A DNA stretch of 64,000 bases from Christensenellales bacterium (lineage in GTDB: Bacteria > Bacillota > Clostridia > Christensenellales > UBA1242): positions 145,051 to 209,050 of the forward strand of contig JBJFDL010000002.1 in the NCBI GenBank assembly GCA_051889995.1, in the 5' to 3' direction. The notes beneath the pieces are model-generated. The model was not told the DNA's origin. It worked only from the letters and a program-made list of their open reading frames with translations, and ran no database searches. Within the stretch, counting starts at the first letter, position 1. Every line of letters begins with the position of its first letter. A program made the position numbers and the translations under genes. This document shows, one piece after another, positions 3,362-19,279 of this stretch.

Positions 3362-4750
3362 TTATATTTTTTCTAAATGTGAACCTTCTTTATTGTCAAC
3401 AACTTTATACCCTTTTGATAATATTAAATCTCTTAATTCATCACTCTTTTTGTAATCTTTGTTTCGTCTTGCCTCGGTTCTTTCATTTAATAGTTTTATC
3501 AATTCTTCTGGAACTTCGTCTACTTTATCTTCTTTTGCAGTCAATCCTAATCCCAAAACGCCATCAAACTCTTCAATTAAAGCAAGTTTTGATGCATCTG
3601 TCATATCACTCTTTAATGTATCATAAACAACTGTTAACGCCATTGGTGTGTTTAGATTGTTTTCTAATGCATCTTTGAAAGTTTTTCTATAATTTTCCAT
3701 CTTATCATTTTCTATTTGTCCATCTTCTTTTAATGCTTGAATTTTTTTAATTAACTTTTCATAAGCATTTTTAGCAATATCTAAATTTTCATAAGAGAAA
3801 ACCAAATTTTTTAGATAATGAGATTGCAGGCAAAAATATTTATATGCCAATGGATTGTAGCCTTTGTTTATCAAATCGTCAATAGTAACAAATTTTCCAC
3901 TACTTTTGCTCATTTTCCCATCACTCATATTCAAGTGTCTTGGATGGAACCAGTAATTACACCATTTATGACCTAAATAGCTTTCACTTTGAGCAATTTC
4001 ATTTGTGTGATGAGGAAATTTATTATCAATTCCTCCACAGTGAATGTCTAGATATTCGCCAAGATATTTTAATGATATTGCACTACATTCAATATGCCAA
4101 CCTGGATATCCAACTCCCCATGGACTATCCCATTTTAATGCTTGTGCTTCAAATTTAGATTTTGTGAACCATAAAACAAAATCTTGTGGATGTTTTTTGT
4201 TTACATCTTCTTCAACATCATCTCGAACACCAACCATTAAATCTTCATTTGATTGTTTAACAAGTGTGTAATAGTTTTTAAGTTTTGATGTGTCAAAATA
4301 TATATTACCATCTGAAAAATAAGCATAGCCTGTGTCAATCAACTTTTGAATCATCTTGATATATTCATCTATCATACTTGTTGCTGGAACAACAATATCA
4401 GGCCACTTTAGATTTAATTTTTTAAAATCGTTTTTAAATGCTTCAGTATAAAATTGTGCTATTTCCAAAATGCTTTTATGCTCTCTTAAAGCACCTTTTA
4501 GCATTTTATCTTCGCCTTCATCAGCATCAGATTCCAAGTGTCCCACATCTGTTATATTCATTGCTCTTTTAACATCATAGCCTAAATAAAGCAAAGTTTT
4601 TTCCAAAATGTCTTCATATATATAAGTTCTTAAATTACCAATGTGCGCAAAATAGTAAACAGTAGGACCACAAGTATACATTTTAACTTTGCCCTTTTCG
4701 TTAGGAATAAACTCTTCTCTTCTGTCGCCCAAACTATTGTATAAAATCAT
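3362..4750 (-). CDS. cysS: Cysteine--tRNA ligase
   Basis: Class I motifs HIGN (FAHIGNLRT) and KMSKS (GKMSKSSG). The GWHIECS zinc/cysteine-binding region is typical of CysRS. SD AGAGG upstream. Confidence 0.93.
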   Translation of the reverse strand: MILYNSLGDRREEFIPNEKGKVKMYTCGPTVYYFAHIGNLRTYIYEDILEKTLLYLGYDVKRAMNITDVGHLESDADEGEDKMLKGALREHKSILEIAQFYTEAFKNDFKKLNLKWPDIVVPATSMIDEYIKMIQKLIDTGYAYFSDGNIYFDTSKLKNYYTLVKQSNEDLMVGVRDDVEEDVNKKHPQDFVLWFTKSKFEAQALKWDSPWGVGYPGWHIECSAISLKYLGEYLDIHCGGIDNKFPHHTNEIAQSESYLGHKWCNYWFHPRHLNMSDGKMSKSSGKFVTIDDLINKGYNPLAYKYFCLQSHYLKNLVFSYENLDIAKNAYEKLIKKIQALKEDGQIENDKMENYRKTFKDALENNLNTPMALTVVYDTLKSDMTDASKLALIEEFDGVLGLGLTAKEDKVDEVPEELIKLLNERTEARRNKDYKKSDELRDLILSKGYKVVDNKEGSHLEKI

Positions 4751-7171: not shown

Positions 7172-7198
7172 TAAAAAAGCAAGTGTTTTTCACTTGCT
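7172..7198 (-). terminator. Rho-independent terminator of the ATPase/vWA operon
   Basis: Hairpin AGCAAGTG-TTTTT-CACTTGCT (7178-7198) immediately after the stop at 7199. An A-run on the plus strand gives a U-run on the minus transcript. Confidence 0.75.
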
Positions 7199-8674
7199 TT
7201 ATGGCAAATATTCGTCATCGTTTTTTACAGCATTTTCTCCATTCATTATTTCAGATGTGGTAACATTTATCACTCTTCCACAAGATGGTTTAAAGTTTTT
7301 ATTATCATAAACTATCCAAATAATTTCATTGTCATCACCATTATAACTATCATAGCCATCTGTAAAAACAATTCTATTAACTTCTTTTTTTCTTGTAAAA
7401 AATGAGGTCGCATAATCAAAATTTGTCCCATACCCACCAGAAATTTTAAAATTGTCTACATCATTTTTATTGTTTATTTTTTGAAATCCGTAAAAATTAT
7501 TATCAAAACAAGCAACAGAAAGTTTTGTATTTTTTGCAAGAATTTTAATTTGTCTTAAGAAAGAAATTACTAATTCTCTCGAAACTGATGCAGAAGTATC
7601 AATTAAAACTTCTGTAAATCTTTCACTATCATCATCGATGTCTTCAAGTCTTGATGTTGTCGTTCTTCTTTTTGACCATATTGTTTCAAAATTGTCCATT
7701 TTGTCTTTTAAAATTTTTTTCCAGTCTAATATACTTTTTTCTGTCCCAATATCAATTTTTACATCATTTTTATTCTTATCATTATATATATGTTTCAATT
7801 TTTCAGTTTGTTTTTGTTTAAGTTCTTTGAAAAGTTTTTTCCTTAGTTGTCTGTTTTCTTCAAAAACTTGTTTTTCATTAATACCTATATTTTGAGCATC
7901 TAAACCATCATTTTCTCTTAAATTCTTTCCACCACCAGTTTTTCCTGCTTCTTTAGAATTAGAAGAAAATGAGTTATTAGAACTTTGATTTTGGTCAGAT
8001 GAAATTTTGGCATTGTTGTCTGATTTTTCTTGAGAATCAGCATTTTTTGATTGATTATTTTCTTTTTTGCTTGTTTCTTGTTCATTTTCTTTGGCTTGAT
8101 TTTTTTTGTTTTGCCAAATCTCATGGTTATCTACTAATTTTTTGCCTTCGGTAATGTTTGAATAGTCTTGATTTTCTTGAGAATAACTTATTTCATCACC
8201 AATCGATTGACTTTGAAACTTTTGTTCACTAAATTCTTTTCGATTAGCTTTATTTCTCTCGAGTTGTTGCTTTAATATTTCGTAATATTCTTCGGCTGTA
8301 TAGTTTATTGATTCTGGTTTATTAATGTAGTCTTCTCGAATCACAAAGCCATCTTTTTCTAAATTAGCATTAATTATTGCATCGGTAGCAATATTCCAAA
8401 GTTTTAAATCATCTATATTGTTTTTATTGTTTTCAAAACGATACATGTGTTTGAAAACTATATGTAAAATTTCATGGGCCATTAAAAAGGCTCGGTCGTT
8501 TTCGGTTAAACTAGCAAAATAATCTGGGTCGATGTAAATATTTTTTCCATCTGTTGCTGCTGTTTTAACACTTAAATCTTTTGCGCATATAAAATTTGCA
8601 TTGGCGATTTCTGCACCAAACACCGGATATTTTAACATAATAAATTTTTTTGTTTGTTCTATTAAATCTTCCAT
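7199..8674 (-). CDS. Predicted metallopeptidase fused to a vWA-like domain (DUF2201/COG3864-like architecture)
   Basis: N-terminal HExxH (MAHEILHIVFKH). Long N/Q/S/K/E-rich low-complexity linker. C-terminal MIDAS-like DxSxS (VLIDTSASVS), consistent with a vWA fold. Start lies 8 nt after the stop of the upstream small ORF. Confidence 0.7.
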   Translation of the reverse strand: MEDLIEQTKKFIMLKYPVFGAEIANANFICAKDLSVKTAATDGKNIYIDPDYFASLTENDRAFLMAHEILHIVFKHMYRFENNKNNIDDLKLWNIATDAIINANLEKDGFVIREDYINKPESINYTAEEYYEILKQQLERNKANRKEFSEQKFQSQSIGDEISYSQENQDYSNITEGKKLVDNHEIWQNKKNQAKENEQETSKKENNQSKNADSQEKSDNNAKISSDQNQSSNNSFSSNSKEAGKTGGGKNLRENDGLDAQNIGINEKQVFEENRQLRKKLFKELKQKQTEKLKHIYNDKNKNDVKIDIGTEKSILDWKKILKDKMDNFETIWSKRRTTTSRLEDIDDDSERFTEVLIDTSASVSRELVISFLRQIKILAKNTKLSVACFDNNFYGFQKINNKNDVDNFKISGGYGTNFDYATSFFTRKKEVNRIVFTDGYDSYNGDDNEIIWIVYDNKNFKPSCGRVINVTTSEIMNGENAVKNDDEYLP

Positions 8675-8682
8675 TCAAACAC

Positions 8683-9078
8683 CTACATACACATTAAAGC
8701 CAATTTTCTAATTTCATCTGATAATTTATTAAAATTATCTTCGTTTTCAATAGTTAAAGCAATAATGATATTTTCTGGTAATTTATAACCGTTAAATTCT
8801 CTATCTTTAATCAAGCCAACGAATCTATCTTGCATATCAAAATCTGCTTTATCCATATTATTAATAACAAGATAGCCTATTTCAACTCTTTCACTTAAAT
8901 TGTTTATTTTTTCTTCAAAAATTAATGTTCCATTATTAAATAAAAACTCATTAGAGATATTTGCTTGAATTGAAACTAATTTCTTTAAATTTTTAAAATT
9001 GTCTTCTTTCACAACTACGCATTGCCCTTTTGAGCAGTGTTTTAAAATAAATAAATTAATGTCAATACTTTTTTTCAT
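8683..9078 (-). CDS. Small hypothetical protein (131 aa) between the ATPase and the vWA-peptidase
   Basis: I prefer the ATG at 9078, which has GGTGGAG upstream and lies 1 nt after the ATPase stop at 9080-9082. The track start at 9114 overlaps the ATPase. The segment YLVINNMDKADFDMQDRFVGLIKDREFNGYKLPENIIIALT resembles the Walker-B-to-sensor-1 part of AAA_5 ATPases, but no P-loop is present. Confidence 0.6.
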   Translation of the reverse strand: MKKSIDINLFILKHCSKGQCVVVKEDNFKNLKKLVSIQANISNEFLFNNGTLIFEEKINNLSERVEIGYLVINNMDKADFDMQDRFVGLIKDREFNGYKLPENIIIALTIENEDNFNKLSDEIRKLALMCM

Positions 9079-9079
9079 A

Positions 9080-11392
9080 CTACTCCACCTTTTCAAATTC
9101 TCTTTTTTTAGCATTTAGTTCTTCAATTTTTAGATATCTTTCCTCATCTTTTGTCCAAATTAAATCAAATATTTCTAAAAATTCAGGAGAACATTTCTCT
9201 CTAATAAAATTTCTAACCTTTTCAACATTTTCAATGTCTACCGATAGAAGCGACATAGTGCATGCGACTTTCTCACTTATTGTTGTTGGTAAATCATTAG
9301 TTGTATAAGTATCATCAACAATTTCTTCTACAGTTATTGGTTCATTGTTATAAAAATCTGCAAAGGCAACTGCCCATTCTGGTCTTAACATTCTAAGCAA
9401 CATATTTTTAAAATTCATTTCAATATCTTCCGAATCGATTGCTCCATTAGAATATTCCTTTTCAAAGTGATATAACCAATTTGAAATATGTTCCCAGTTT
9501 CTTGGGTCATTTGTTCTTCCTGCATCTTCATATATTGTTGGGTTATTTTCACCAACGTCTGGTCCTTCAATAAAATACGACAAATTTTCATCTAAACCTT
9601 TATTTAAAGTTTTCATTTTTAAGCGATTTTGTTCATATTTTGATAAAATAAACCCTATTACCTTTGGATGTAATTCTCTTGGAATCGCGTATTCAAAAAT
9701 CCATTCTTGAACATTAGGTTCAACATCAATAATTGCAGAAAAACGTTTTTGAAGTGGAGATGATAGTTCTTCAGCTGATTGTGAAAACATTTTTGGATTT
9801 CCTGTTGCAACAACAACCATATTGTCTGGAAATTTAATACCACTTCCACACTCTAAAAATTTATCTAATACTAAACTAAAAACTAATGATTGAATTCTTG
9901 AATCTACATTCAATAGTTCATCTAAAAGCAAAACAGCTTTTTTATCACTAATTTTGGCTCTTTCGCTAATTATTGGAGCAAGTTCAAACAATTTTTGTGG
10001 GTCATCTCTCATTATCTTCTTTTCTTCTTCTGTTGCCCATGTTTCAAAAATTAATCTTGCATAGATTGGTGGAATTGATTTTCCTTTTGCTACGTCCGTT
10101 GACCCCATTATTAATTCTGGTAACATATTTCTAAATAATCTTAGATAAACCAAATTATATCCATATTCTTCGCACAAATCTCTAACTCTTTGTGTTTTAC
10201 CAATACCACTAGCTCCTCTAATCAAAACTGGTGCTCCAATATCAATTAACATTTTTAACTCATCTGTAACACTCATCTTGCCCATTTTAAAATCAGATTG
10301 TAATTTTTTTGGTGCTAGTTTTTGTAAACGTGTTTGCCTTGTTTTAGGCTCTTGTTTGGATTGATTTTCAATGTTTAACAAGATGCCGTCAAATGCTTCA
10401 TTCAAAAAGCCTTTGTTTTTAAAGTTGTAATTTATGTCAGTTTTGAACTGACTGTTTCCGTTACCTTGATTTAGTTCTTCATCCAAATCATAACTATTCA
10501 AAAATGCTCTAATTATGCTGTTTTGCCACATTGAACAATTTTTCATACTAAAGCTTGTATGAAATGGAATTCCAGCAATTATTGTGTCTTTGGCCTTTAC
10601 ATCAATATATTTTGCCTTTCCTGTTCCAATTGGATTTATTTCTTCTGGAAGCTCATTCCAATTTTTAATTTTCCACTCAATAGGCTCAACTTTTACCCAC
10701 AAAAAAGTTTCATCTTGGGGCGCCTTCGTTCCATCACAATATTCGCTATTATCATTTTTCTTTTTGGTTAAGACTCTAACATATTTTTGTCCTTCGTGTT
10801 CAAACTCAGAGTGTGATATCACTGCTCCATTTTGATCCATTCTTCCAGTGTATGTCTTGCCAGTCGAAGCAAGCTTATTTAAAGAATAAAGATTTTCAAG
10901 TTCTTTATTCTTCTTCTCTCCAACAAATGTTTTGGGATATTCACCAAATTGAATAATATATTCCTTTTTATTTTTATTATTTACAATATCATAAATTTTA
11001 AAAAATTTATTTGAAATTTTTTGCGCAGAAATAACAGATGAAACATTTAAGTGTAAAGAAGGACATAATCCTTCAATGTTTGTGCTTACATTGTAAGCAC
11101 CAAACTTACCTAAATGATCAATAATATTCACAAAAAATTGAGAGTAATCAGAAAAAGGCGCAGAACGAAGCCATTGATAACAAGATTTTCTATTTGAAAC
11201 ATCATCGCCTGTTTCGATCATACATGCTCCATTCATAACAGCATAGTCGGTTGGATATGCAATTCTTTCAATGTCTGAAAATTTTTCAACTTCATTTTTA
11301 GCATCTAAATAAACTAAATCTTGTGTTGAAATGTTTTTTCTCAAATATTCGTCATCTAGTTTAGTTGGTATAATAAATTTTGAAATATCCAT
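9080..11392 (-). CDS. AAA+ ATPase (MoxR/AAA_5-like) with a ~350 aa N-terminal non-ATPase domain
   Basis: Walker A GASGIGKT, Walker B AVLLLDELLNVD, sensor-1-like VVATGNP. The N-terminal half carries CYQWLRSAP, GLCPSLHLN, PIEWKIKNW and SIIRAFLNSY. I recognise these as the pattern of the DUF6273-type domain (from memory, unverified). Confidence 0.7.
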   Translation of the reverse strand: MDISKFIIPTKLDDEYLRKNISTQDLVYLDAKNEVEKFSDIERIAYPTDYAVMNGACMIETGDDVSNRKSCYQWLRSAPFSDYSQFFVNIIDHLGKFGAYNVSTNIEGLCPSLHLNVSSVISAQKISNKFFKIYDIVNNKNKKEYIIQFGEYPKTFVGEKKNKELENLYSLNKLASTGKTYTGRMDQNGAVISHSEFEHEGQKYVRVLTKKKNDNSEYCDGTKAPQDETFLWVKVEPIEWKIKNWNELPEEINPIGTGKAKYIDVKAKDTIIAGIPFHTSFSMKNCSMWQNSIIRAFLNSYDLDEELNQGNGNSQFKTDINYNFKNKGFLNEAFDGILLNIENQSKQEPKTRQTRLQKLAPKKLQSDFKMGKMSVTDELKMLIDIGAPVLIRGASGIGKTQRVRDLCEEYGYNLVYLRLFRNMLPELIMGSTDVAKGKSIPPIYARLIFETWATEEEKKIMRDDPQKLFELAPIISERAKISDKKAVLLLDELLNVDSRIQSLVFSLVLDKFLECGSGIKFPDNMVVVATGNPKMFSQSAEELSSPLQKRFSAIIDVEPNVQEWIFEYAIPRELHPKVIGFILSKYEQNRLKMKTLNKGLDENLSYFIEGPDVGENNPTIYEDAGRTNDPRNWEHISNWLYHFEKEYSNGAIDSEDIEMNFKNMLLRMLRPEWAVAFADFYNNEPITVEEIVDDTYTTNDLPTTISEKVACTMSLLSVDIENVEKVRNFIREKCSPEFLEIFDLIWTKDEERYLKIEELNAKKREFEKVE

Positions 11393-11825
11393 AATAGCTC
11401 CTTGTTGATAAAAAAATTATAACATATATAAAAAAAATTTTCAATACCCAATATAGATTTTATAATAATTTTATTATGTAGCATGAAATATCGTTATGAT
11501 TGGAGTGTTTGAGAGCATTTCTGCACATAATTAAAATCTTTTGTTTACGATTAACAAACTGCTATTTTCAAAGTAAATGAAAATTTTAACTTATTTAAAT
11601 TTTAAACAATACTTTTAAACCTTTCTTTTGCCATACATACTAAACAATTTATAATAGTCAATATGGCATAAACGCCCTTTATAAGCAGTTAATCTTTTGT
11701 TAATAAATTATTCATCAACGATATTAAGATGTTGCATAATCAAACAACACTAGTAATTGTTCAAGGAGTCCTTGCGAAATGATACTTAAAAATGATAAAA
11801 AGTATGTAGTACTCCAAGTGGCTAA

Positions 11826-12142
11826 ATCAAAAGAAATATTTAGGAGATAGACTTGGAGATACTGATAGATTATTCTGTACAGAAGATGGAAAAGATATAT
11901 CTCCTGGATTATTCAGAGTATGGCCACAAAAAACACTCGCAAAGGCAGGCTTGCCAAAGGTAACATTACACTCTCTAAGGCACACAAACATAACACTACA
12001 ACTAGTAGCAGGAGTAGACGTGAAAACAGTATCTGCCCGTGCAGGACACTCAAAAGCATCCACCACAAGCGACTTCTACAGCCACTTCATAAAGAACTCA
12101 GACATCCACGCAAGTGAGATATTAAATAAAATATTTGAGTGA
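11826..12142 (+). pseudogene. 3' remnant of a tyrosine recombinase (integrase) gene
   Basis: The frame opens after a TAA at ~11823 and encodes only the C-terminal catalytic part: ...LFCTEDGKDISPGLF...VTLHSLRHTNITLQLVAGVDVKTVSARAGHSKASTTSDFYSHF (HxxR, GH and catalytic Y). No N-terminal or core-binding domain and no proper start. Visibly more GC-rich than its surroundings. Confidence 0.75.
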
Positions 12143-12220
12143 AATTTGATAAATGAATGTTTTTTATCACAACCATATACATTTTGAAAAACTATATGTT
12201 ATAATTAATTAGAGGTGGTT

Positions 12221-13591
12221 ATGGATATTAAATTTAACGGATTTGCAAATAATGTTATTAAGGATGGAGATCAATATTCTTATTTCTTTGATGGAGAGAT
12301 TTTACATTTAAACCGTATAAAAGAAGTTTCTGGTGTAGAATATTCTTTTATTAATAAACAAATATCGGTATTACAAACGACAAAGCATGATGGTGGTAAT
12401 GTTGTATTATTTGATTGTATTGAAAGATGCATGGGTTTATCTAATGATGAATTAGAAATAAAACCTTCTTATATATTTGAATCAAAATATCAAAATTATC
12501 AATTCGATAAGTTTTCTGGGATTGTTTGTTACGGAAAATGGATAAACAAATTGTTTCCTCCAAGTCAAATTGTAGAATATGATAGTTTGAATTATGAGCA
12601 TAACAAAGAAACATTTTATCAATGTGCAAGAGATGGTTCAAAGACGATAAAACTAAAAAAGTGGGATGATGTGGATAAAAAATTTAAGTATAAGGTTAAT
12701 AGCGAAGAAATTGAAATATCCTTTAATATTTCATCTCCAGGAACAATAAGAGAAGAGGATGAAAACCTTGGTGAGATAAAATCCTTATTTGAATTAAAAT
12801 TATCTAATAGTCATAACATTACTGAAGTTAAAGATTATTACTTAATTATAAGAAAGTTTTTTCAATTTTTAACAAACAGACAAGACATTTTGTTTGATGA
12901 GATTCATATTTTACAATCATGTGAGGTAGGAAAATATGAAAGAATAGGATGTTTTTATGATTTAAATAATAAATCCTCAGAAATTCCTAAAAAGATGCAT
13001 CTTGCTAAACATTACTTTGGTAACATTACTAAATTATTCAAATATATTAGCAATGAAAAGATTAACTTTAATCATATTCCTAAAAACAATTTAGAACATA
13101 GATATGTAACACCAGAACAATATGTAAATTGTTGTGGTTCTTTTGAATATAACTATAAAAAAGTATTTAAAGATGAGCCATTAGATGAAAAAACTAATCA
13201 AATCATAAATGATTTATCTAAATTTTTAGAATCTCAAAGCAATTATAATAGCAAACAAAGAAAAATCATAAAAAAGATTATAGACGATTTAAACAAGACT
13301 TCTCAATCCGTAGAAAAGAAATATAACAAATGTTTAAAGCGATATAAAGATGTCGTTTCACCATTTATCAATGAATTAATAAATCATTATGAAATAGCAA
13401 AAACTCCACAATTACTAGGTTCTCATTTCTCTTCTTATAGAAACCATAAAGCCCATGGTGAGTTAACCCCATTTACAAAAGAAGCAGTTTGTGCCTATGT
13501 AGTTGCAAATGTGATAATAGAATGTTTAATTTTAGATGCCTGTGGATTTAGCATTGAAGAGATGAAAGAGATTGTTAAAAATAAATATTAA
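12221..13591 (+). CDS. HEPN-motif protein with a large N-terminal domain (ApeA-like architecture)
   Basis: ATG at 12221 preceded by AGAGGTGG. The C-terminal region contains an Rx4H HEPN signature in a typical context (SSYRNHKAHGELTPF). The ~400 aa N-terminal region has no motif I recognise. Confidence 0.55.
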   Translation: MDIKFNGFANNVIKDGDQYSYFFDGEILHLNRIKEVSGVEYSFINKQISVLQTTKHDGGNVVLFDCIERCMGLSNDELEIKPSYIFESKYQNYQFDKFSGIVCYGKWINKLFPPSQIVEYDSLNYEHNKETFYQCARDGSKTIKLKKWDDVDKKFKYKVNSEEIEISFNISSPGTIREEDENLGEIKSLFELKLSNSHNITEVKDYYLIIRKFFQFLTNRQDILFDEIHILQSCEVGKYERIGCFYDLNNKSSEIPKKMHLAKHYFGNITKLFKYISNEKINFNHIPKNNLEHRYVTPEQYVNCCGSFEYNYKKVFKDEPLDEKTNQIINDLSKFLESQSNYNSKQRKIIKKIIDDLNKTSQSVEKKYNKCLKRYKDVVSPFINELINHYEIAKTPQLLGSHFSSYRNHKAHGELTPFTKEAVCAYVVANVIIECLILDACGFSIEEMKEIVKNKY

Positions 13592-13592
13592 A

Positions 13593-13624
13593 AAGACGGC
13601 TAAATAAAGCCGTCTTTTTTCTTT
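13593..13624. terminator. Bidirectional rho-independent terminator
   Basis: AAGACGGC-TAAATAAA-GCCGTCTT hairpin with an A-run upstream and a T-run downstream. Lies between the HEPN gene stop and the tRNA 3' fragment. Confidence 0.8.
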
Positions 13625-13630
13625 GTTAAT

Positions 13631-13678
13631 TGGTACAACCGAGATGATTTGAACATCCGACCTATCGCTTAGGAGGCG
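13631..13678 (-). pseudogene. Detached 3' half of a tRNA-Arg(CCT) gene (anticodon loop to CCA)
   Basis: Minus strand reads CGCCTCCTAA-GCGAT-AGGTC-GGATG-TTCAAAT-CATCT-CGGTTGT-A-CCA. This is an anticodon loop and 3' stem arm, a variable loop, a T arm, a 3' acceptor arm and an encoded CCA. There is no 5' half upstream of it. Confidence 0.7.
13668..13678. repeat. att core copy (left junction)
   Basis: CTTAGGAGGCG, identical to 20994-21004. Corresponds to the anticodon loop plus stem arm of tRNA-Arg(CCT). Confidence 0.75.
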
Positions 13679-13845
13679 TTTGTCGGCTCACAAAATACTT
13701 CAAATAACTTGTGAAACTTGTAGTCTTATTAAATGTTAGAATAAAATTCATTTAGTATTGTTAAAAATGAAAGTTTTTTCAAATAAAATTAAAAATAAAA
13801 AGTTGGCTCACAGTATGGCGTGAGATGTCTAAACCATCTTTATAC

Positions 13846-13860
13846 CCTTTAACTTGTATA
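13846..13860. repeat. 15-bp inverted-repeat arm upstream of rep
   Basis: CCTTTAACTTGTATA is the perfect reverse complement of TATACAAGTTAAAGG at 14903-14917. Confidence 0.8.
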
Positions 13861-13900
13861 AAAAGTAAAACATCAGGTTGAAGTTAAAGGAGATAATGAT

Positions 13901-14767
13901 ATGGAAAAGAGCAATTTAATAAAAGATAATCATTTAGTTAAAGTAAAAATAATCGGCAACGATTTAGAACTTTATAACATAAACACTTGTAATTATAAAC
14001 CAACAATAAAAAAATTGCAAGGTAGAAAACATATAATTTTAAGAACAGGTGAAATTGTAGAAGAAAAGCAATCTCTTATAAGAGGCGAAAATGCTAGGAC
14101 TTTGTTAGAAAGTAATATACGGCTACGAGATTTAATAAAAGAAAATACGATTGAGTTATGGAAAACGCTTTTAATAACTCTAACCTACCGAGATAAAATA
14201 CTTGATATAAAGAAAATCAAACTTGATTTCAAACACTTTATAAACTATTTAAGAAAGCATTTTACACAATTTGGCAACATTGAATATATACAAGCCATTG
14301 AGCCATTTGACGATTTACAAGGTTATCATTTACACGCAATACTATTTTTCAATGATAGCAAAGCAAAAGTCTTTATGGGCTTTGAAGTGCTTGAAAAAGC
14401 GTGGAAAAATGGTTTTGCAAGTATCTGTCAGCCAAAAGATGAAAAATCAATGTATTTATATATTACGCCACATTTAGAAAATGAAGTCAGCGATAAAAAT
14501 ATAGATATGCACCAAAAAGCATTAAATCAAATGCAACTACCAGCAGGCACAAACTTATATAGTTATTCAAAAGGCATAAAAAAGCCACAAATTTGGACTG
14601 ATAACTATGCAGAAGTCAAAAAGTATTTAGTTGAAAACAAATATGTCTATCAGCGAGAAAACATTTATAAAAATGAAATGTCAACTCTAAAAGGCAACAA
14701 TCTTTATTATTGTAAAGAGTTTTATAAAAAAGAAATGGATGTTAAACCAACGAGAAAGCCGATTTAA
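13901..14767 (+). CDS. HUH-type rolling-circle replication initiator (Rep)
   Basis: Motif 1-like LLITLTY, HUH motif GYHLHAILFF, and downstream Tyr-containing MYLYITPHL. SD GGAG upstream (AAGGAGATAATGATATG). Confidence 0.7.
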   Translation: MEKSNLIKDNHLVKVKIIGNDLELYNINTCNYKPTIKKLQGRKHIILRTGEIVEEKQSLIRGENARTLLESNIRLRDLIKENTIELWKTLLITLTYRDKILDIKKIKLDFKHFINYLRKHFTQFGNIEYIQAIEPFDDLQGYHLHAILFFNDSKAKVFMGFEVLEKAWKNGFASICQPKDEKSMYLYITPHLENEVSDKNIDMHQKALNQMQLPAGTNLYSYSKGIKKPQIWTDNYAEVKKYLVENKYVYQRENIYKNEMSTLKGNNLYYCKEFYKKEMDVKPTRKPI

Positions 14768-14902
14768 GCAATGTTTTAAGTGGCTATGTAGTATTTAATA
14801 TAATGTCTTATATTAAACACAAATTGACCTAAAATTGTAGTTGAAAAAAGAAAAATGAAACAGAGGGAATATATGTCAAATTTGACCCAATGTTTCATTT
14901 TT

Positions 14903-14917
14903 TATACAAGTTAAAGG
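14903..14917. repeat. 15-bp inverted-repeat arm downstream of rep
   Basis: TATACAAGTTAAAGG, partner of 13846-13860. Confidence 0.8.
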
Positions 14918-14973
14918 AAAAATATTGAATGTCTTGTCTTTTGGCAAGTTTTAAGGAATAATTTTTATGTCAG

Positions 14974-15285
14974 TTAATTTTTAAGCAGGTTTATTATAGA
15001 GTCTTTTTTGACTTGATTTACATTTTTAAGCAAGTCAATTATCTCTTTATCTTTTTGATAATCATAGATATTGTAGTAAAAGAACTCTAACGGAGTTGAG
15101 CCACACGCTTCAATTATTTCAAGTAAGGCAGAAACGGACGGCTCAAAACTATCATTTTTAGACTCAAGGCGAGAGATATAAGCACCATTTTTACCAATAC
15201 GCAAACTTAAATCTCTGGCAGATAAGCCTGCTTTAATTCTTAACTGACTAATACGCTCAACAACTTCATTTTTATTCATAGGCAT
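14974..15285 (-). CDS. XRE-family helix-turn-helix transcriptional regulator
   Basis: RISQLRIKAGLSARDLSLRIGKNGAYISRLE is a typical Cro/CI-type HTH. Divergent from the cargo operon. Confidence 0.8.
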   Translation of the reverse strand: MPMNKNEVVERISQLRIKAGLSARDLSLRIGKNGAYISRLESKNDSFEPSVSALLEIIEACGSTPLEFFYYNIYDYQKDKEIIDLLKNVNQVKKDSIINLLKN

Positions 15286-15378
15286 ACCTCACATTTTTAA
15301 CTACTAAAATTATAAGGTATTATTGACCTACACTATCTTGATGATACTTGTAAAAATGACATATTGTGAAATTGTAAT

Positions 15379-15427
15379 GCACTTTTAAGTGCAAAATGTT
15401 GCTTTTAAGTTCATTTTATGCTATACT
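15379..15427 (+). promoter_or_regulatory. Cargo-operon promoter with a candidate operator
   Basis: Perfect 14-bp palindrome GCACTTTTAAGTGC (15379-15392) abuts -35 TTGCTT (15399-15404), a 17-bp spacer and -10 TATACT (15422-15427). Lies in the divergent region next to the XRE gene. Confidence 0.55.
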
Positions 15428-15449
15428 CTATTACATGAGAGGTATAGCT

Positions 15450-16307
15450 ATGAAAGTCGTGTTGAGCAGAAAAGGCGTAGATACTGGAAATAGTAAAATG
15501 TCAAATTTAGTTATAACAAATAATGGTAAAAGTGAAATTGTGATGATACCAATACCTAGTGAAAAAGATAAGGTATCATACAACGATTTAACATTTTCAA
15601 ATGATAAGAATGTAGATTTTTATACAAAGGAATACATAAGAGTTCATAATACTAGGTTGAATGAATTAAAAACAAAGTGCCATGCTGACCCAAATCTATC
15701 TAACTATTTTAATGATTCAAACTTTTTAGGTTCAATAGGTCAAGTTGGCATATCTTTATCACATTTAGAAAAACATAACATAAAAGTTGGAGATATATTT
15801 ATATTCTTTGGGCGTTTTTCATATATGGATTTAATAAACAACCAGCCAAAAATGAGAGAAAAAGATAAACATTTATTATTTGGTTATCTGCAAGTTGGCG
15901 AAATAATTTATCCTAATAAACTCACACCTAATCAAAGAAAAGAATACGAACATAAATATCCTTGGATTGTCAATCAACCACATTGGAATATGGACAAATA
16001 TAAAAATCAAAAAAATAACTGCATTTATGTAGCAAGTGAGAAATGCTCTTTTGATAATTCATTATGTGGTTATGGCACATTTAACTATGATGACGCTTTA
16101 ATTCTAACAAAAGAAAATGAGCCATTATCTCATTGGAGTTTATCGCGCGAAGTATTAAAAGAAGAATTGTCTTATCATAACAAAAACAATGTAAAAGATA
16201 ACTATTTTCAATCGGCACTTCGTGGGCAAGAATTTGTATTTACATATAATGAAAAAGTAAAAAGTTGGGCTGAAAATTTAATTAAAAAATATGGTAAGAG
16301 GGTTTAA
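15450..16307 (+). CDS. Hypothetical protein (286 aa), possibly Nmad3-like (putative nucleotide-modification-associated family)
   Basis: ATG at 15450 preceded by GAGAGG; the track start at 15396 lacks an SD. The N-terminus MKVVLSRKGVDTGNS and a later CHADPN resemble my recollection of Nmad3-family proteins. This is unverified. Confidence 0.45.
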   Translation: MKVVLSRKGVDTGNSKMSNLVITNNGKSEIVMIPIPSEKDKVSYNDLTFSNDKNVDFYTKEYIRVHNTRLNELKTKCHADPNLSNYFNDSNFLGSIGQVGISLSHLEKHNIKVGDIFIFFGRFSYMDLINNQPKMREKDKHLLFGYLQVGEIIYPNKLTPNQRKEYEHKYPWIVNQPHWNMDKYKNQKNNCIYVASEKCSFDNSLCGYGTFNYDDALILTKENEPLSHWSLSREVLKEELSYHNKNNVKDNYFQSALRGQEFVFTYNEKVKSWAENLIKKYGKRV

Positions 16308-16309
16308 TA

Positions 16310-16489
16310 ATGGGAAAAATAAAATGTCCTAAATGTAGTAGTAATAATGTTAAAGATTTGGGTGTAGTAAAGAATAATGATTTCATATCAAAAGCAATTG
16401 GTGCAATAAATTGGGCTGCAAGTGGTGGCAAAAGCAAACACAATTTTCAATGTATAAATTGTAACAATACATTTATAGCGGAAAAATAA
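16310..16489 (+). CDS. 59-aa zinc-ribbon protein (not in the ORF track)
   Basis: ATG 2 nt after the upstream stop. MGKIKCPKCSSNNVKDLG...HNFQCINCNNTFIAEK has CxxC...CxxC. Stop TAA at 16487-16489. Confidence 0.6.
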   Translation: MGKIKCPKCSSNNVKDLGVVKNNDFISKAIGAINWAASGGKSKHNFQCINCNNTFIAEK

Positions 16490-16505
16490 TTATTTGAGGT
16501 TAATT

Positions 16506-17705
16506 ATGAAAAAGCGAACAGGTTTAGCATTAGCAGGTGGAATACTTGAAATTATAGCAGGAACTTATCTTTTGATATATGCACTTTGGGCTTTATCATT
16601 TTATTTACAAATACCAAACGGACTGCAAATATATAATTGGGAAATGCTAATAGTTTTTGGCGTTTTAATCTTTTTTGGTATTATGGCAATTATAGGCAAA
16701 ACAAAGAAAGATTTAGCCACTTATGGCATATTAAATTTGTTATATGTTGGCATGCTTATTTTTAGAGCAATACAGACGAACGCAACAAATGTTATATGGG
16801 TATTTTCATTTGAAATGATTTTACTAGTCATAGCGTCAATGTTTTTCTTTTTTAGCAAAAAAAGTGAATATGAAATAGTTTATGAAGAAAAGTTAAAAGA
16901 ATATAAAGCAAACGAGCCACAAGAACACATAAAACTTAAAAATATATTTACATGGTTAAGTGCTGTAATTGTTATTTTAATTGGTTTATCAATGTTTTTA
17001 TGGCGAATAGGTATCATTATAGGTTTAGTGGCTATTATTGGCTTTATTTTAATGATTATACTTATACCTAGAAAAGATAAAAGCGAATATAGTTGGAATG
17101 CAAACATTGTATTTAGTAGCATAGCAATTTTTATATGTTTTGTTTGTTCTATATTTGTGCCAGCAGGATTTTATTCAGAAATAAGTGTGAATGTAAATAC
17201 TTCTATAATAACTTACCCCCTTATGCAAGATACATATATTTACTATAACAACGAAAGCAATCAATATGAAATTTTAATAGCTGAACAATATACTGATTAT
17301 GACGAACATAGCAATGAAATACAAACAACCATATATTTTGTTGACGGAAAAGAAGCATATGAAGAACTGCCATCAGGTGCAAATAAAGTTTTAGATAAAT
17401 TAAACTATTATGAGCCATCAACTGAAAGTAGAGTTATCGCATATAGTTTTCACGACAATGAACTAGACAGGGTTAGATTTTACTCAGAACTAGGCATTGT
17501 CTATGATACTTTACCACAACCAAAAATTTCTAAAACTCAATCAACTGATAAAACAATCTTTTATATAATAAGCGTCGCAGGTGCTGTCATAGGGTTAATC
17601 ATAATACTAGGCACTAAAAATGCACAACTAGGCATTGAAATAAACAAACGACTTAAAGAAGAAGAAAGGAAAAAGACATACGAAAAATATCAAAACAAAA
17701 ATTAA
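16506..17705 (+). CDS. Polytopic membrane protein (~8 predicted TM helices) of unknown function
   Basis: ATG at 16506 with GAGGT 5 nt upstream. Hydrophobic helices run through aa ~10-125 and ~155-235, followed by a ~140 aa polar segment, a final TM and a charged tail (EERKKTYEKYQNKN). Confidence 0.7.
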   Translation: MKKRTGLALAGGILEIIAGTYLLIYALWALSFYLQIPNGLQIYNWEMLIVFGVLIFFGIMAIIGKTKKDLATYGILNLLYVGMLIFRAIQTNATNVIWVFSFEMILLVIASMFFFFSKKSEYEIVYEEKLKEYKANEPQEHIKLKNIFTWLSAVIVILIGLSMFLWRIGIIIGLVAIIGFILMIILIPRKDKSEYSWNANIVFSSIAIFICFVCSIFVPAGFYSEISVNVNTSIITYPLMQDTYIYYNNESNQYEILIAEQYTDYDEHSNEIQTTIYFVDGKEAYEELPSGANKVLDKLNYYEPSTESRVIAYSFHDNELDRVRFYSELGIVYDTLPQPKISKTQSTDKTIFYIISVAGAVIGLIIILGTKNAQLGIEINKRLKEEERKKTYEKYQNKN

Positions 17706-17780
17706 ATAAGATATATAATTCTCGCCACTGAAAAGTGGTCTCAAATGGTTGAAATCTTATTTAACAATAAAATCCTAATA

Positions 17781-17811
17781 AAAAAATAAAATCGGCAAAA
17801 TCAAGCCGATT
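17781..17811 (-). terminator. Rho-independent terminator of the 17820-18455 gene
   Basis: AATCGGC-N8-GCCGATT hairpin with a plus-strand A-run upstream, giving a U-run on the minus transcript. Confidence 0.7.
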
Positions 17812-17819
17812 TCAATGGC

Positions 17820-18455
17820 TCACTTAGCAGTGGGCTTTTTTGTTGGGTTGCAATAAAATTCTAAAAAGTCATTTAAAAATTCAAATAATAGTTGTCTTAT
17901 TAACAATTTTTGGTCGTTCAATGGTTTTATAATTTGTTTTTTGTGTCCTGCATTGTCAACAGAATTTATATTTTCATCATTTATATATTCTTCAAGTTGT
18001 TTCTTTTTAAAATATAATTTTCTATATTTATCTATACTATTTTTAAATTCATTCAAAAACTCACTATATTTAGGGTAAGAATAAAGAATTCTATACATTG
18101 GCTGAGTATAATCAAAACAATCTTCAAATAGTCTTGCGTCAATATATTTCGGGTATTCGGCTACATTGTTCAATGCTAATTCAATAGTTTGATACTCTTC
18201 ATTCAAATTTACATTATCTATTTGATATAAAAAACTAAAAAAAGAAATTGGTTGGTCAAGTTTAGAAGGCTCTGCTACTTTAAGTTTTGATAAAGTGTTT
18301 ATAAATTTTATTACAAAATCAAACTTGAGTTCTACTTTACCTTGTTCAATTTTTTTATAGTTTTCAAGTGACATATTTAATTCTTGTGCCATTTCCCTTT
18401 GGGTTAACTTGTATACTTCATTTCTGTAATCTTGAATAACTTCTTGTGGTGTCAT
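17820..18455 (-). CDS. HTH (XRE-like) regulator with an uncharacterised ~140 aa C-terminal domain
   Basis: N-terminal LTQREMAQELNMSLENYKKIEQGK HTH. Divergent from the xis-orf-int module. Confidence 0.7.
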   Translation of the reverse strand: MTPQEVIQDYRNEVYKLTQREMAQELNMSLENYKKIEQGKVELKFDFVIKFINTLSKLKVAEPSKLDQPISFFSFLYQIDNVNLNEEYQTIELALNNVAEYPKYIDARLFEDCFDYTQPMYRILYSYPKYSEFLNEFKNSIDKYRKLYFKKKQLEEYINDENINSVDNAGHKKQIIKPLNDQKLLIRQLLFEFLNDFLEFYCNPTKKPTAK

Positions 18456-18745
18456 TTATGCTCCTTTAGGGAAAAATATTCCCCTTTAACAGTATGGATT
18501 TTATCGTTTTACTCTACTATTATACTAAAATTTGACCACAAAATCAATAAATATCATTAAAAGTTCCCCTATACCTAAAATTTTTATATTTTAGTGTAGA
18601 ATATAGGTGTTTCGAAACCAATATCGTGTAAGTTCACGGTAATACTCGGGGAATTTGTCTTGAACGATTGTCTTTTATGTCGTGAAAGAGTTTAATAGTT
18701 CTACTCAAATCTCTGAGACAAAAATAAATCAAGGAGGGTTAGCAA

Positions 18746-18937
18746 ATGGGCTACAGAACAATTAACGAATGTTATAAAATCTTACTAAAAAATGATAATG
18801 AAACTTGCATAACTCCATATTTTTTAAGAACACTTTGTAAAAACGGAGTTATAAAAACAATCAATGCAGGTGGCAAATATTTGATAAATATGAAAAGTCT
18901 TTTAGACTATTTAGAATTAGATTACAAGGAGATATAA
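18746..18937 (+). CDS. Excisionase-type small DNA-binding protein (Xis-like)
   Basis: 63 aa. YFLRTLCKNGVIKTINAGGKYLINMKSLLDYL resembles excisionase-family HTH proteins. SD AAGGAGG upstream. Lies upstream of int on the same strand. Confidence 0.6.
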   Translation: MGYRTINECYKILLKNDNETCITPYFLRTLCKNGVIKTINAGGKYLINMKSLLDYLELDYKEI

Positions 18938-18939
18938 AT

Positions 18940-19278
18940 ATGAATAATAATTATAAAATAATACGATTTGAAAGGGACCTTGACATATTCCCTGACTACA
19001 TAATAGTCAAAGTTATGGCAATAGAAAACAGCACAAACTTGATAAGGCTGTTTATTAGTAAGCCATTTATGATAAAAGAAAAATGGGATAAACAACAAGT
19101 GCAGACAAGAGTTGAAATCTTTGTTGATAAGTTTGTCGGTTCAATAGATATAAGGCAAGATTATGACCTTATAGATTTTGACGAGAACTTGAAGTTTACA
19201 CAATGTCAAAATGGCAGATTTTACAATCGCCATTTAATAGACAATAATGGAAAATTAAAAAAAGGAGTGTGGTTTTGA
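18940..19278 (+). CDS. Hypothetical protein (112 aa) in the xis-int module
   Basis: Starts 2 nt after the xis-like stop. Its TGA is separated from the int ATG by one nucleotide (TGATATG). No recognisable motif. Confidence 0.5.
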   Translation: MNNNYKIIRFERDLDIFPDYIIVKVMAIENSTNLIRLFISKPFMIKEKWDKQQVQTRVEIFVDKFVGSIDIRQDYDLIDFDENLKFTQCQNGRFYNRHLIDNNGKLKKGVWF

Positions 19279-19279
19279 T

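What the first reader, a model, noticed from the sequence alone, without database searches (positions are those of the whole stretch)
7199..11392. Tightly coupled ATPase, small protein and vWA-metallopeptidase operon with an unusual N-terminal sensor-like domain on the AAA+ ATPase
The three ORFs are separated by 1 nt and 8 nt and share one terminator. ORF1 fuses a ~350 aa domain to a MoxR/AAA_5-type ATPase (GASGIGKT, LLLDELLNVD). That domain carries motifs I associate with DUF6273-type domains usually seen in secreted Firmicute proteins (YQWLRS, GLCPSLHLN, PIEWKIKNW, IRAFLNSY). ORF3 combines an HExxH peptidase domain with a MIDAS-bearing vWA domain, joined by a long N/Q/S/K-rich linker. AAA_5/MoxR plus vWA pairs are known chaperone-like or conflict modules, including the NTP-dependent vWA-MoxR conflict systems proposed by Aravind and colleagues. 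I do not recognise this particular domain fusion or the three-gene layout. The operon sits in the accessory hotspot between recD2 and the tRNA islands.
Basis: partly seen in the sequence, partly recalled or inferred. Interest (0 to 1): 0.65.

Follow-up and report, generated by a model that had tools for sequence, protein, structure and literature searches.

The report
Retroelement-diversified sensor ATPase operon, now frozen
This three-gene operon belongs to a family in gut Firmicutes in which a mutagenic retroelement rewrites a lectin-like binding domain fused to an AAA+ ATPase that partners a protease-vWA protein; in this genome the retroelement has decayed, so the binding site is fixed.

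Summary
The operon is real: three translationally coupled minus-strand genes with one promoter-like site and one terminator. ORF1 (770 aa) joins a ~345-aa N-terminal module to an AAA_5/MoxR-like ATPase. ORF2 (131 aa) models as an AAA+ core without a P-loop. ORF3 (491 aa) is a DUF2201_N HExxH peptidase joined to a MIDAS vWA domain.

DUF6273 is the C-type-lectin-like target domain of diversity-generating retroelements (DGRs). In 32 of 65 species-level relatives a DGR reverse transcriptase sits directly upstream of the ATPase gene. In 25 of them a template repeat differs from codons ~75-115 of the ATPase almost only at template adenines. The sensor module on the ATPase is therefore a DGR target.

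In this window the DGR is gone. Only the last ~40 RT codons remain (11630-11737, with an in-frame stop), no template repeat is present, and the variable region is invariant across 14 near-identical proteins.

Most likely function (inferred): a ligand-triggered, ATP-driven proteolytic conflict system. It is a new variant of the DGR-linked MoxR-vWA systems known from cyanobacteria and gammaproteobacteria. I found no description of it in the papers I could search.

The parts
11416..11444 (-). Promoter-like site for the operon (TTGAAA, 17 nt, TGnTATAAT)
   Evidence: 11 of 12 matches with an extended -10. It lies between the RT remnant and the ORF1 start and is conserved in the 94% relative L001.
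11630..11737 (-). Remnant of a DGR reverse transcriptase gene: the last ~40 codons, with an in-frame stop
   Evidence: tblastn with RTs from relatives matches RT aa ~299-339 at 45-52% identity, E 5e-5. L001 shares the remnant. Homology to L001 ends near 11765.
9080..11392 (-). ORF1: sensor-ATPase, 770 aa
   Evidence: It is identical to NCBI MGN1222731.1, 'AAA family ATPase [Christensenellales bacterium]'.
10358..11392 (-). N-terminal ~345-aa module of ORF1; residues ~3-120 are DUF6273-like
   Evidence: The AF2 model has pLDDT 88.9 and pTM 0.87. Homologues hit PF19789 at aa 3-120. The best BFVD fold matches are DUF6273 phage proteins, though weak. The module also occurs alone or fused to LRR_5.
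11063..11164 (-). Equivalent of the DGR variable region (aa ~77-110, between WLRSA and GLCPSLHLN), frozen in this genome
   Evidence: It aligns with the VRs of relatives. Family entropy here is 2.72 bits against 1.34 overall. The window holds no TR copy. The stretch is almost invariant in 14 cluster members.
9740..10231 (-). AAA_5 (MoxR-like) ATPase core of ORF1
   Evidence: Pfam AAA_5 scores 34.8 bits against a cut-off of 22. Walker A G393-T400, Walker B D491/E492, N532 and R550 are invariant or nearly so in 59 homologues. phrog_1297 matches at E 2e-37.
8683..9078 (-). ORF2: 131-aa AAA+ alpha/beta core without a P-loop (pseudo-ATPase subunit)
   Evidence: The AF2 model has pLDDT 87.8. The top 50 Foldseek PDB hits are all AAA+ cores, E from 5e-4 and prob ~1.0. 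The only hhalign match to ORF1 covers Walker B to sensor 1, and it is weak. There is no Pfam, NCBIfam or PADLOC hit.
7199..8674 (-). ORF3: zincin peptidase, low-complexity linker, vWA protein; 491 aa
   Evidence: Pfam DUF2201_N plus DUF2201. phrog_1314 matches at E 7e-53.
8084..8656 (-). DUF2201_N metallopeptidase domain of ORF3 (HEILH at aa 67-71)
   Evidence: H67, E68, H71, D98, D182 and H184 are at least 95% conserved in 60 family members.
7262..7609 (-). vWA-like domain of ORF3 with a MIDAS motif (D359-x-S361-x-S363, T438-D439)
   Evidence: for the domain; for MIDAS conservation.
7176..7200 (-). Intrinsic terminator closing the operon
   Evidence: 10-bp stem, 5-nt loop and a T-run, overlapping the ORF3 stop codon.

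Best explanation
The locus is a self-contained, cytoplasmic three-protein system from a family common in gut and rumen Clostridia and Bacilli.

Component 1 is an AAA_5/MoxR-like ATPase that carries its own receptor. This is a ~345-aa N-terminal module whose DUF6273 (C-type-lectin-like) part ends in a hairpin of ~30 hypervariable residues. Component 2 is an AAA+ core paralogue with no P-loop and no arginine finger, so it is catalytically dead. It probably joins or caps the ATPase ring as a regulator or adaptor. Component 3 is an HExxH zincin peptidase tethered by a long disordered linker to a MIDAS vWA domain, the usual docking partner of MoxR-type rings.

In about half of the relatives an Avd-TR-RT diversity-generating retroelement sits directly upstream and rewrites the hairpin by adenine-specific mutagenic retrohoming. 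Cells of those lineages thus carry a programmable receptor.

Proposed mechanism, which is inferred and not shown: the receptor binds an intracellular ligand, most plausibly a protein of a phage or other invader. ATP-driven remodelling by the ring is passed to the vWA-peptidase, whose protease is then released or activated to cut host or invader proteins.

In this window the retroelement has been destroyed. Only an RT tail remains, there is no TR, and the flanks of the variable region have drifted to host-like AT-rich codons. The operon keeps its own promoter, intact reading frames and catalytic motifs, so it now works with one fixed specificity.
For: Shown by tool results:
- The operon anatomy is confirmed.
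- Domain identities are established.
- The triad is conserved. Among 62 species-level loci with enough downstream sequence, 58 have an ORF3 homologue and 51 have both ORF2 and ORF3 homologues.
- An RT lies directly upstream on the same strand in 32 of 65 loci. TR/VR pairs in 25 loci have mismatches almost only at TR adenines: L003 19/19, L012 18/18, L018 16/16, L019 16/16.
- The TRs encode AAY-rich WLRSAxSKNNVN...GLCP.
- The RT is of the DGR type, related to RTs of phage nd12, Faecalibacterium phages and Bordetella phages. Weak bAvd hits lie upstream of the TR in 3 loci.
- In closely related species the VR, 8.5% of the compared length, holds 20-42% of the nucleotide differences.
- The family shows an entropy peak at aa 79-108.
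- None of the three proteins has a TM segment or signal peptide.
- Loss in the window is documented by the RT remnant, the missing TR and the invariant VR in 14 cluster members.

From the literature:
- DUF6273 is a C-lec-like DGR target with the VR at its C-terminal end (PMC10743442, PMC11792537, bioRxiv 10.1101/2024.10.15.618418).
- DGR-diversified C-lec domains are proposed as sensors in MoxR-vWA conflict systems (PMC7159879, PMC10907252).
Against: No experiment bears on function. PADLOC recognises no known defence system. A census of 149 flanking ORFs from 36 loci shows no recurrent partner and only scattered defence genes among housekeeping genes, so defence-island enrichment is not demonstrated. 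The core pair of ATPase plus zincin-vWA also occurs in lytic Vequintavirinae phages, so it is not intrinsically an anti-phage device. The ATPase has no sequence-detectable relative in the PDB, and its placement within MoxR was not tested phylogenetically. The role of ORF2 rests on a predicted fold with TM ~0.5. The whole N-module has no significant PDB fold match. The window protein does not itself reach Pfam's DUF6273 threshold. A trans-acting DGR elsewhere in this genome could not be excluded, because only 64 kb are available.
Confidence: 0.55

Rival explanations
1. It is a programmable degradation machine rather than a signalling system. The hypervariable lectin-like module captures a target protein. 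The AAA+ ring and the tethered zincin then unfold and degrade that same target, working like a split FtsH-type protease whose substrate receptor is diversified by the DGR.
For: The receptor is fused to the motor itself, not to the vWA or effector protein as in the VMAP systems. An AAA+ ATPase and an HExxH zincin are always co-encoded. All parts are cytoplasmic. Some loci carry two tandem sensor-ATPase paralogues, which would suit mixed rings with two specificities.
Against: To my knowledge MoxR/AAA_5 ATPases remodel partners rather than act as processive unfoldases. No pore-loop analysis was done. The peptidase sits on a separate polypeptide behind a ~150-residue low-complexity linker. There are no data on substrates.
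Confidence: 0.2
2. It is a module that serves a mobile element or phage, for example superinfection exclusion, counter-defence or host takeover. It would have been captured from phages together with a phage-type DGR and would not be host immunity.
For: ORF1's ATPase part and ORF3 match phage families phrog_1297 and phrog_1314. Homologous pairs sit in lytic Vequintavirinae phages. The RT is closest to gut-phage DGR RTs. In the window the operon abuts an integrated element with Rep and integrase at tRNA-Arg.
Against: It is also absent from 50,697 phage records. Its neighbours are mostly chromosomal housekeeping genes with no virion genes. In the window it lies outside the integrated element, next to recD2 and cysS.
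Confidence: 0.12
3. It is a housekeeping MoxR-vWA chaperone or maturase in the manner of CbbQ/CbbO, NorQ/NorD or RavA/ViaA. The N-module would merely bind a fixed cellular client, and the DGR association in relatives would be incidental.
For: AAA_5 plus MIDAS-vWA is the classical chaperone pair, to my knowledge. The window copy has a fixed N-module and lies next to core genes.
Against: No NCBIfam equivalog matches. No client operon is conserved nearby. The family is patchy and sits in different contexts in different genomes. A hypermutated client-binding site makes no sense for a fixed client. Between the window and its 94% relative, the N-module shows 36 nonsynonymous and 25 synonymous codon differences, against 2 and 21 in recD2.
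Confidence: 0.08

Closest known systems
DGR-diversified MoxR-vWA ternary conflict systems (VMAP and iSTAND types; Kaur et al. 2020, PMC7159879; Dore et al. 2024, PMC10907252)
   Same: [quoted passage not shown] In both, the lectin domain is read as the sensor of a regulated conflict system.
   Different: In the known systems the lectin (FGS-type) domain sits at the C-terminus of the vWA component. The third protein is a VMAP or iSTAND protein with trypsin, caspase or TIR effectors, and the hosts are mainly multicellular cyanobacteria, actinobacteria and gammaproteobacteria. Here the lectin domain is DUF6273-type and sits at the N-terminus of the ATPase itself. The peptidase is a zincin fused to the vWA protein. 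The third protein is a P-loop-less AAA+ core. The hosts are gut and rumen Clostridia and Bacilli, which to my knowledge are not multicellular.
Phage DGR targets with DUF6273 (tentaclins and Mtd-like proteins of gut phages; PMC10743442, PMC11792537, bioRxiv 10.1101/2024.10.15.618418)
   Same: They share the Pfam domain, with the VR at its C-terminal end forming a beta-hairpin, and the cassette order Avd-TR-RT. The RTs are 40% identical. As here, DGR loss with retention of the target is reported for phages.
   Different: The phage proteins are extracellular virion receptor-binding or decoration proteins fused to Ig-like domains. This protein is cytoplasmic and fused to an ATPase. [quoted passage not shown]
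MoxR-like ATPase plus DUF2201 zincin-vWA gene pairs of Vequintavirinae phages (phrog_1297 and phrog_1314; e.g. Pectobacterium phage CB7 genes 108 and 110)
   Same: The ATPase core is homologous (~25% identity). The partner is homologous in both its peptidase and vWA parts. The gene order is the same.
   Different: The phage ATPase is 412 aa and has no N-terminal sensor module. There is no ORF2 homologue; the gene between the pair is unrelated. There is no DGR. The function of the phage pair is also unknown.
CbbQ/CbbO, NorQ/NorD and RavA/ViaA MoxR-vWA chaperone pairs
   Same: An AAA+ ring of the AAA_5/MoxR type works with a MIDAS-bearing vWA adaptor encoded next to it.
   Different: Those pairs have fixed metabolic clients encoded nearby, no peptidase domain, no hypervariable receptor and no DGR. 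No NCBIfam model for them matches these proteins.

Membership tests
DGR target gene (active) | A template repeat (TR) homologous to the variable region, with differences confined to TR adenines | tested here: not met
   The window has no second copy of 10988-11227. The feature is met in 25 relatives, for example L003 with 19 of 19 mismatches at TR adenines.
DGR target gene (active) | A DGR-type reverse transcriptase, with an Avd-like accessory gene, in the locus | tested here: not met
   The window keeps only an RT tail at 11630-11737, with an in-frame stop. An RT is present in 32 of 65 relatives. bAvd-like genes give weak hits in 3 loci.
DGR target gene (active) | Variation of the VR among close relatives | tested here: not met
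   In 14 members of the 90% cluster, aa 79-108 are invariant except positions 82, 83 and 86. DGR-positive relatives do show VR-concentrated differences.
DUF6273 (PF19789) / C-type-lectin-fold DGR target domain | A match to the Pfam model above its gathering score | tested here: inconclusive
   The window protein gives no hit at E<=1. Homologues at 43-48% identity hit at aa 3-120 with 27.8-40.9 bits against a cut-off of 23.5, covering only profile positions 53-171. Residues 125-345 give no hit.
DUF6273 (PF19789) / C-type-lectin-fold DGR target domain | A C-type-lectin-like fold | tested here: inconclusive
   The AF2 model is confident. Foldseek finds nothing significant in the PDB. In BFVD the best hits are DUF6273 phage proteins at E 4e-3 with prob 0.80-0.93.
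MoxR-type AAA+ ATPase (AAA_5) | An AAA_5 Pfam match with intact Walker A, Walker B, sensor 1 and arginine finger | tested here: met
   AAA_5 scores 34.8 bits against a cut-off of 22. G393/K399/T400, D491/E492, N532 and R550 are conserved in 59 sequences.
MoxR-type AAA+ ATPase (AAA_5) | An adjacent gene for a vWA protein with a MIDAS motif | tested here: met
   ORF3 has a DUF2201 vWA domain with D359-x-S-x-S and T438-D439, at least 95% conserved.
MoxR-type AAA+ ATPase (AAA_5) | Phylogenetic placement in a named MoxR subfamily (MRP, RavA, CGN, TM0930 and others) | not tested
   No reference set was at hand. The profile finds no PDB relative. AAA_3 matches only partially, E 0.008.
VMAP/iSTAND ternary conflict system (Kaur et al. 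2020) | A third component that is a VMAP or iSTAND protein | tested here: not met
   ORF2 has no Pfam hit at E<=0.01 and folds as a bare AAA+ core.
VMAP/iSTAND ternary conflict system (Kaur et al. 2020) | Effector or lectin (FGS) domains fused C-terminally to the vWA component | tested here: not met
   ORF3 ends with the vWA domain and its extra domain is an N-terminal zincin. The lectin-like domain is on the ATPase.
DUF2201 zincin-vWA proteins (PF13203 + PF09967) | Both Pfam domains above threshold, with HExxH and MIDAS motifs intact | tested here: met
   The domains score 83.5 and 37.2 bits against cut-offs of 23.2 and 26.4. Both motifs are conserved.
NorQ/NorD or CbbQ/CbbO activases | A match to curated family models, with the client operon nearby | tested here: not met
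   NCBIfam gives no relevant hit for any of the three proteins. The neighbours are recD2, cysS and a mobile element.
Known anti-phage defence systems (PADLOC-DB 2.0) | A match to a system's protein models | tested here: not met
   The only hit is a P-loop-level match of ORF1 to PDC-S01, E 6e-4 over 35 residues.

The most novel reading that the evidence does not exclude
Gut Firmicutes that are not multicellular carry a cytoplasmic, antibody-like recognition system. A retroelement continually rewrites the ligand-binding hairpin of a receptor built directly into an AAA+ motor. With a pseudo-ATPase subunit and a tethered metalloprotease, the motor destroys or responds to whatever the receptor catches. 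This would be anticipatory, protein-level innate immunity of a new architecture. Lineages such as the one in this window would have fixed a useful specificity and discarded the diversifier.
Probability: 0.3. Interest if true: 0.85.

Novelty: new variant of a known kind. Interest (0 to 1): 0.62.

Why it matters
DGR-diversified MoxR-vWA systems have been tied to multicellular bacteria and taken as a parallel to metazoan antigen receptors. This family would extend the principle to abundant gut and rumen anaerobes. It also uses a different wiring: the receptor sits on the ATPase, the effector is a zincin on the vWA protein, and the third subunit is a dead AAA+ core.

The family offers natural paired states. 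About half of the species keep the diversifier and half have lost it, and the window shows a decay intermediate. These pairs make the cost and benefit of programmable versus fixed specificity directly comparable.

The compact three-gene core could be tested by heterologous expression. If the mechanism holds, it could be re-programmed as a targeted protein-recognition or degradation tool.

Tried and rejected
1. ORF2 as the DGR accessory protein Avd. Rejected: its model is an alpha/beta AAA+ core, and relatives have a separate bAvd-like gene upstream of the TR.

2. Circular permutation of DUF6273, with PIEWKIKNW and IRAFLNSY as the missing N-half of the domain. This was recalled from memory. It is not supported: aa 125-345 of the window protein and of four homologues give no DUF6273 hit even at E<=10.

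3. PDB sequence searches with ORF3 and with the ORF1 family profile found nothing usable.

4. Foldseek of the whole N-module against the PDB found nothing significant.

5. A search for VR variants or a trans TR of the window's own VR in JGI metagenomes, using its conserved flanks, gave 0 matches. This is uninformative, because the organism may not be in that collection.

6. A census of flanking genes for a fourth conserved component or defence-island enrichment found no family in more than 3 of 149 ORFs.

7. The small gene between the phage MoxR and vWA genes is unrelated to ORF2.

8. RT remnants were sought upstream of 35 RT-less relatives. Only L040 has one, so most losses are old or clean.

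9. Literature searches for this architecture found no description. The queries were DGR with AAA_5, AAA ATPase, MoxR and von Willebrand, plus DUF2201 alone. PF13203 and PF09967 appear only in a supplementary list of Pfam sets near DGRs in PMC10053308.

Full report
**Observation.** The region holds three minus-strand ORFs: ORF1 at 9080-11392 (770 aa), ORF2 at 8683-9078 (131 aa) and ORF3 at 7199-8674 (491 aa). The mechanical list starts ORF2 at 9114. ORF3 starts 8 nt after the ORF2 stop, behind AGGTG. An 11/12 sigma-70-like promoter with an extended -10 lies at 11444..11416. A 10-bp-stem terminator at 7200..7176 overlaps the ORF3 stop. All quoted motifs are present. The only wrong detail is the 'tRNA islands': the window has a single tRNA, tRNA-Arg(CCT) at 20784-20858.

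**Domains.** Pfam finds AAA_5 in ORF1 at aa 388-551 (E 1.9e-8). It finds DUF2201_N at aa 7-197 (E 2.4e-23) and the vWA-like DUF2201 at aa 356-471 (E 3.6e-9) in ORF3. It finds nothing for ORF2 or for the first 350 residues of ORF1. NCBIfam and PADLOC recognise none of the three proteins. PHROGs match the ATPase part (phrog_1297, E 2e-37) and all of ORF3 (phrog_1314, E 7e-53). In 59 ORF1 homologues the Walker A, Walker B (D491/E492), N532 and R550 positions are conserved. In 60 ORF3 homologues the HExxH motif (H67/E68/H71) and the MIDAS motif (D359-x-S-x-S, T438-D439) are at least 95% conserved. None of the three proteins has a hydrophobic segment or a signal-like N-terminus, so the system is cytoplasmic.

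**The N-terminal module and the DGR link.** A search of 5.8 billion proteins gave 163 clusters. Most are ~770 aa and 37-50% identical over the full length, and many are pre-annotated PF19789 (DUF6273) plus PF07728. Re-scanning four of them places DUF6273 at residues 3-120, matching profile positions 53-171 of 172.

Papers in the library describe DUF6273 as a C-type-lectin-like domain. It is the target of diversity-generating retroelements in gut phages, with the variable region at its C-terminal end (PMC10743442, PMC11792537, bioRxiv 10.1101/2024.10.15.618418).

The first long homologous locus, L003, has an RVT_1 gene directly upstream of the ATPase gene. It also has a 108-nt repeat between a site upstream of that RT and codons ~79-115 of the ATPase. 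All 19 differences between the two copies fall on adenines of the upstream copy. This is the signature of DGR mutagenic retrohoming.

**Survey.** One scan of species-representative genomes returned 76 loci. They come from MAGs of Clostridia, Christensenella, Bacilli and 'Tenericutes', with single Alistipes, Fusobacteriales and Lachnospiraceae records.
- Of 65 loci with at least 1.5 kb upstream, 32 have an RT homologue directly upstream on the same strand. The gap is typically under ~150 nt, and ~3.2 kb in two loci (L036, L046) where a second ATPase gene lies between.
- 25 of those RTs are near full length, and 25 loci have an adenine-biased TR/VR pair.
- Of 62 loci with at least 2.2 kb downstream, 58 have an ORF3 homologue and 51 have both ORF2 and ORF3 homologues.

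The TRs encode WLRSAxSKNNVNxVNNDGxLNNNNANK..GLCP with AAY codons, and the VRs differ at exactly those codons. Weak bAvd-like hits lie upstream of the TR in three independent loci. The RT is 35-40% identical to DGR RTs of phage nd12 and Faecalibacterium phage FP_Brigit, and Bordetella phage records are also among the matches.

Among four closely related species the 108-nt VR holds 24 of 57, 25 of 124 and 27 of 122 nucleotide differences within the first 1272 nt. In the protein family, entropy peaks at aa 79-108 at 2.72 bits against 1.34 overall, between the conserved WLRS and GLCPxLHLN flanks.

**State of the window copy.** tblastn with 26 RTs finds only the last ~40 RT codons at 11630-11737, on the same strand as the operon and interrupted by a stop. 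No second copy of the VR-equivalent exists in the 64 kb. The flanks that are GC-rich and identical to the TR in active loci are AT-rich here.

The 94%-identical relative L001 shares the remnant and the promoter, and homology ends near 11765. In 14 members of the same 90% cluster, from different samples, aa 79-108 are invariant except at three positions. The DGR was therefore lost before these strains diverged, and the receptor is frozen.

The genes remain intact. Codon differences from L001, counted as nonsynonymous/synonymous, are 36/25 in the N-module, 10/26 in the ATPase part, 5/11 in ORF2, 9/8 in ORF3 and 2/21 in recD2. The sensor part is thus the fastest-evolving piece, yet it is not a pseudogene. 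Beyond the remnant lie an integrase C-terminal fragment (11951-12142) and an integrated element with Rep, Nmad3 and an integrase next to tRNA-Arg. Insertions there plausibly destroyed the RT.

**ORF2.** Its family (about 120-131 aa) has the conserved pattern YFVIxxID-x6-QNRYxxLVKDREFxGYxLPxNxIIVFTV. This parallels the Walker B to sensor 1 stretch of ORF1. hhalign finds exactly that pairing as its only hit, but it is weak (prob 7%, E 0.005). An AlphaFold2 model built from 48 sequences is confident (pLDDT 87.8, pTM 0.83). Its 50 best Foldseek matches in the PDB are all AAA+ cores, including FlrC, NtrC1, HslU, PspF, dynein and RFC, with E from 5e-4, probability ~1.0 and TM ~0.5. It has no GxxGxGK[ST] motif, no acidic Walker B pair and no conserved arginine after sensor 1. 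I read it as a dead AAA+ paralogue that associates with the ATPase ring. It is absent from the phage versions of the pair.

**The N-module as a unit.** The AF2 model of residues 1-370 is confident (pLDDT 88.9, pTM 0.87), with the VR as a beta-hairpin at 87-101. Foldseek finds no significant PDB match. In BFVD the best matches are DUF6273 phage proteins (E 4e-3, prob 0.80; another at prob 0.93 with rmsd 3.1 over 106 columns).

A full HMMER pass over 1.84 billion representatives finds 831 clusters. The whole 1-335 unit occurs alone (~345-450 aa), fused to ATPases (~700-800 aa), fused to BspA-type LRRs (~900-1050 aa) and inside giant proteins. It is a portable binding module.

**Context and mobility.** The triad sits among different neighbours in different genomes. 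A census of 149 flanking ORFs from 36 loci shows no recurrent family. It is a mix of housekeeping genes, a few defence-type hits (mad3/mad8, PD-T4-6, PDC-S) and two integrases. One locus has ToxN right after the vWA gene. The fused family is essentially absent from IMG/VR and from GenBank phages. The core pair of ATPase plus zincin-vWA, without sensor module, ORF2 or DGR, is present in Vequintavirinae phages.

**Mechanism.** The anatomy, the DGR targeting of the ATPase's receptor in relatives and its loss here are shown by the results above. The following steps are inferred:
- The receptor binds a variable, probably foreign, intracellular ligand.
- The ring, modulated by ORF2, acts on the MIDAS-docked ORF3.
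- The zincin is the output.

This follows the logic proposed for DGR-linked MoxR-vWA systems (PMC7159879, PMC10907252) and the general MoxR-vWA partnership, which I cite from my own knowledge. I put about 0.9 on the structural and evolutionary statement and about 0.5 on the conflict-system mechanism. Three rivals remain open: direct targeted degradation, a mobile-element function, and a housekeeping chaperone. They are ranked in the Rival explanations section.

**Novelty.** The known DGR-MoxR-vWA systems carry the lectin domain on the vWA protein, use VMAP or iSTAND partners with trypsin, caspase or TIR effectors, and are reported from multicellular bacteria. Here the receptor is on the ATPase, the effector is a zincin on the vWA protein, the third component is a pseudo-AAA+ core, and the hosts are gut anaerobes. 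I found no description of this in the searchable literature. DUF2201 Pfams appear only in a supplementary list of DGR neighbourhoods. I rate it a new variant of a known kind. The window's own copy is a DGR-less, fixed-specificity member.

Noticed in passing
window 11951-12142 (+) and 12215-20858: An integrase C-terminal fragment sits beside the RT remnant. It is followed by an integrated element carrying a rolling-circle Rep (13901-14767), HTH regulators, an Nmad3 protein (15396-16307) and a tyrosine integrase (19280-20683), which abuts tRNA-Arg(CCT) at 20784-20858. Insertions here plausibly truncated the DGR.
   Followed up: partly
window 23622-44552 (-): A single ORF of 6976 aa lies in this 28% GC genome. 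It was not analysed.
   Followed up: no
L036 6819-12136 and L047 9911-15217: Some relatives carry two tandem full-length sensor-ATPase paralogues (~740 aa). Their first ~1.2 kb, which encodes the N-module, is 84-89% identical. A ~157-aa ORF and the ORF2 homologue lie between them, behind one Avd-TR-RT cassette. L045 and L048 have 99-100% identical duplicates. This suggests two DGR targets or mixed rings.
   Followed up: partly
L036 13938-15041: A ToxN (type III toxin-antitoxin / AbiQ-like) gene lies immediately downstream of the vWA-peptidase gene. It is one of the few clear defence neighbours.
   Followed up: no
L019 4802-4909; L018 10219-10325: The VR of L019 contains an in-frame stop and that of L018 a frameshift. 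Such variants are expected as by-products of mutagenic retrohoming, but they could also be consensus artefacts of mixed populations in MAG assemblies.
   Followed up: no
P0287, P0304, P0313; P0283, P0347: The same ~335-aa N-module is fused to BspA-type leucine-rich repeats in ~900-1050-aa proteins. It also occurs inside proteins of more than 4000 aa and as stand-alone ~350-450-aa proteins. It is a portable module.
   Followed up: partly
phrog_1314; L085 4783-5295: phrog_1314 is labelled 'HNH endonuclease', but its profile matches the zincin-vWA protein end to end. In phage CB7 a separate small HNH gene sits between the MoxR and vWA genes, which may explain a mislabel.
   Followed up: partly
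L001 1-30: In the 94% relative, the sequence upstream of the shared RT remnant differs from the window, and the contig ends in what looks like the 3' end of a tRNA gene (GGCAGTTCAAATCTGCC...ACCA). That sequence is absent from the window. The flank of the operon therefore varies between close strains.
   Followed up: partly
L040 ~3589-3723: This is the only other RT-less relative, 1 of 35, with an RT C-terminal remnant upstream of the ATPase gene (45 aa, 80% identical to a full RT). It is an independent example of DGR decay.
   Followed up: no
window 22331-23533 (-): A DinB/IMS-family Y-polymerase gene lies next to the tRNA-Arg region. It is ordinary and is noted only as context.
   Followed up: no
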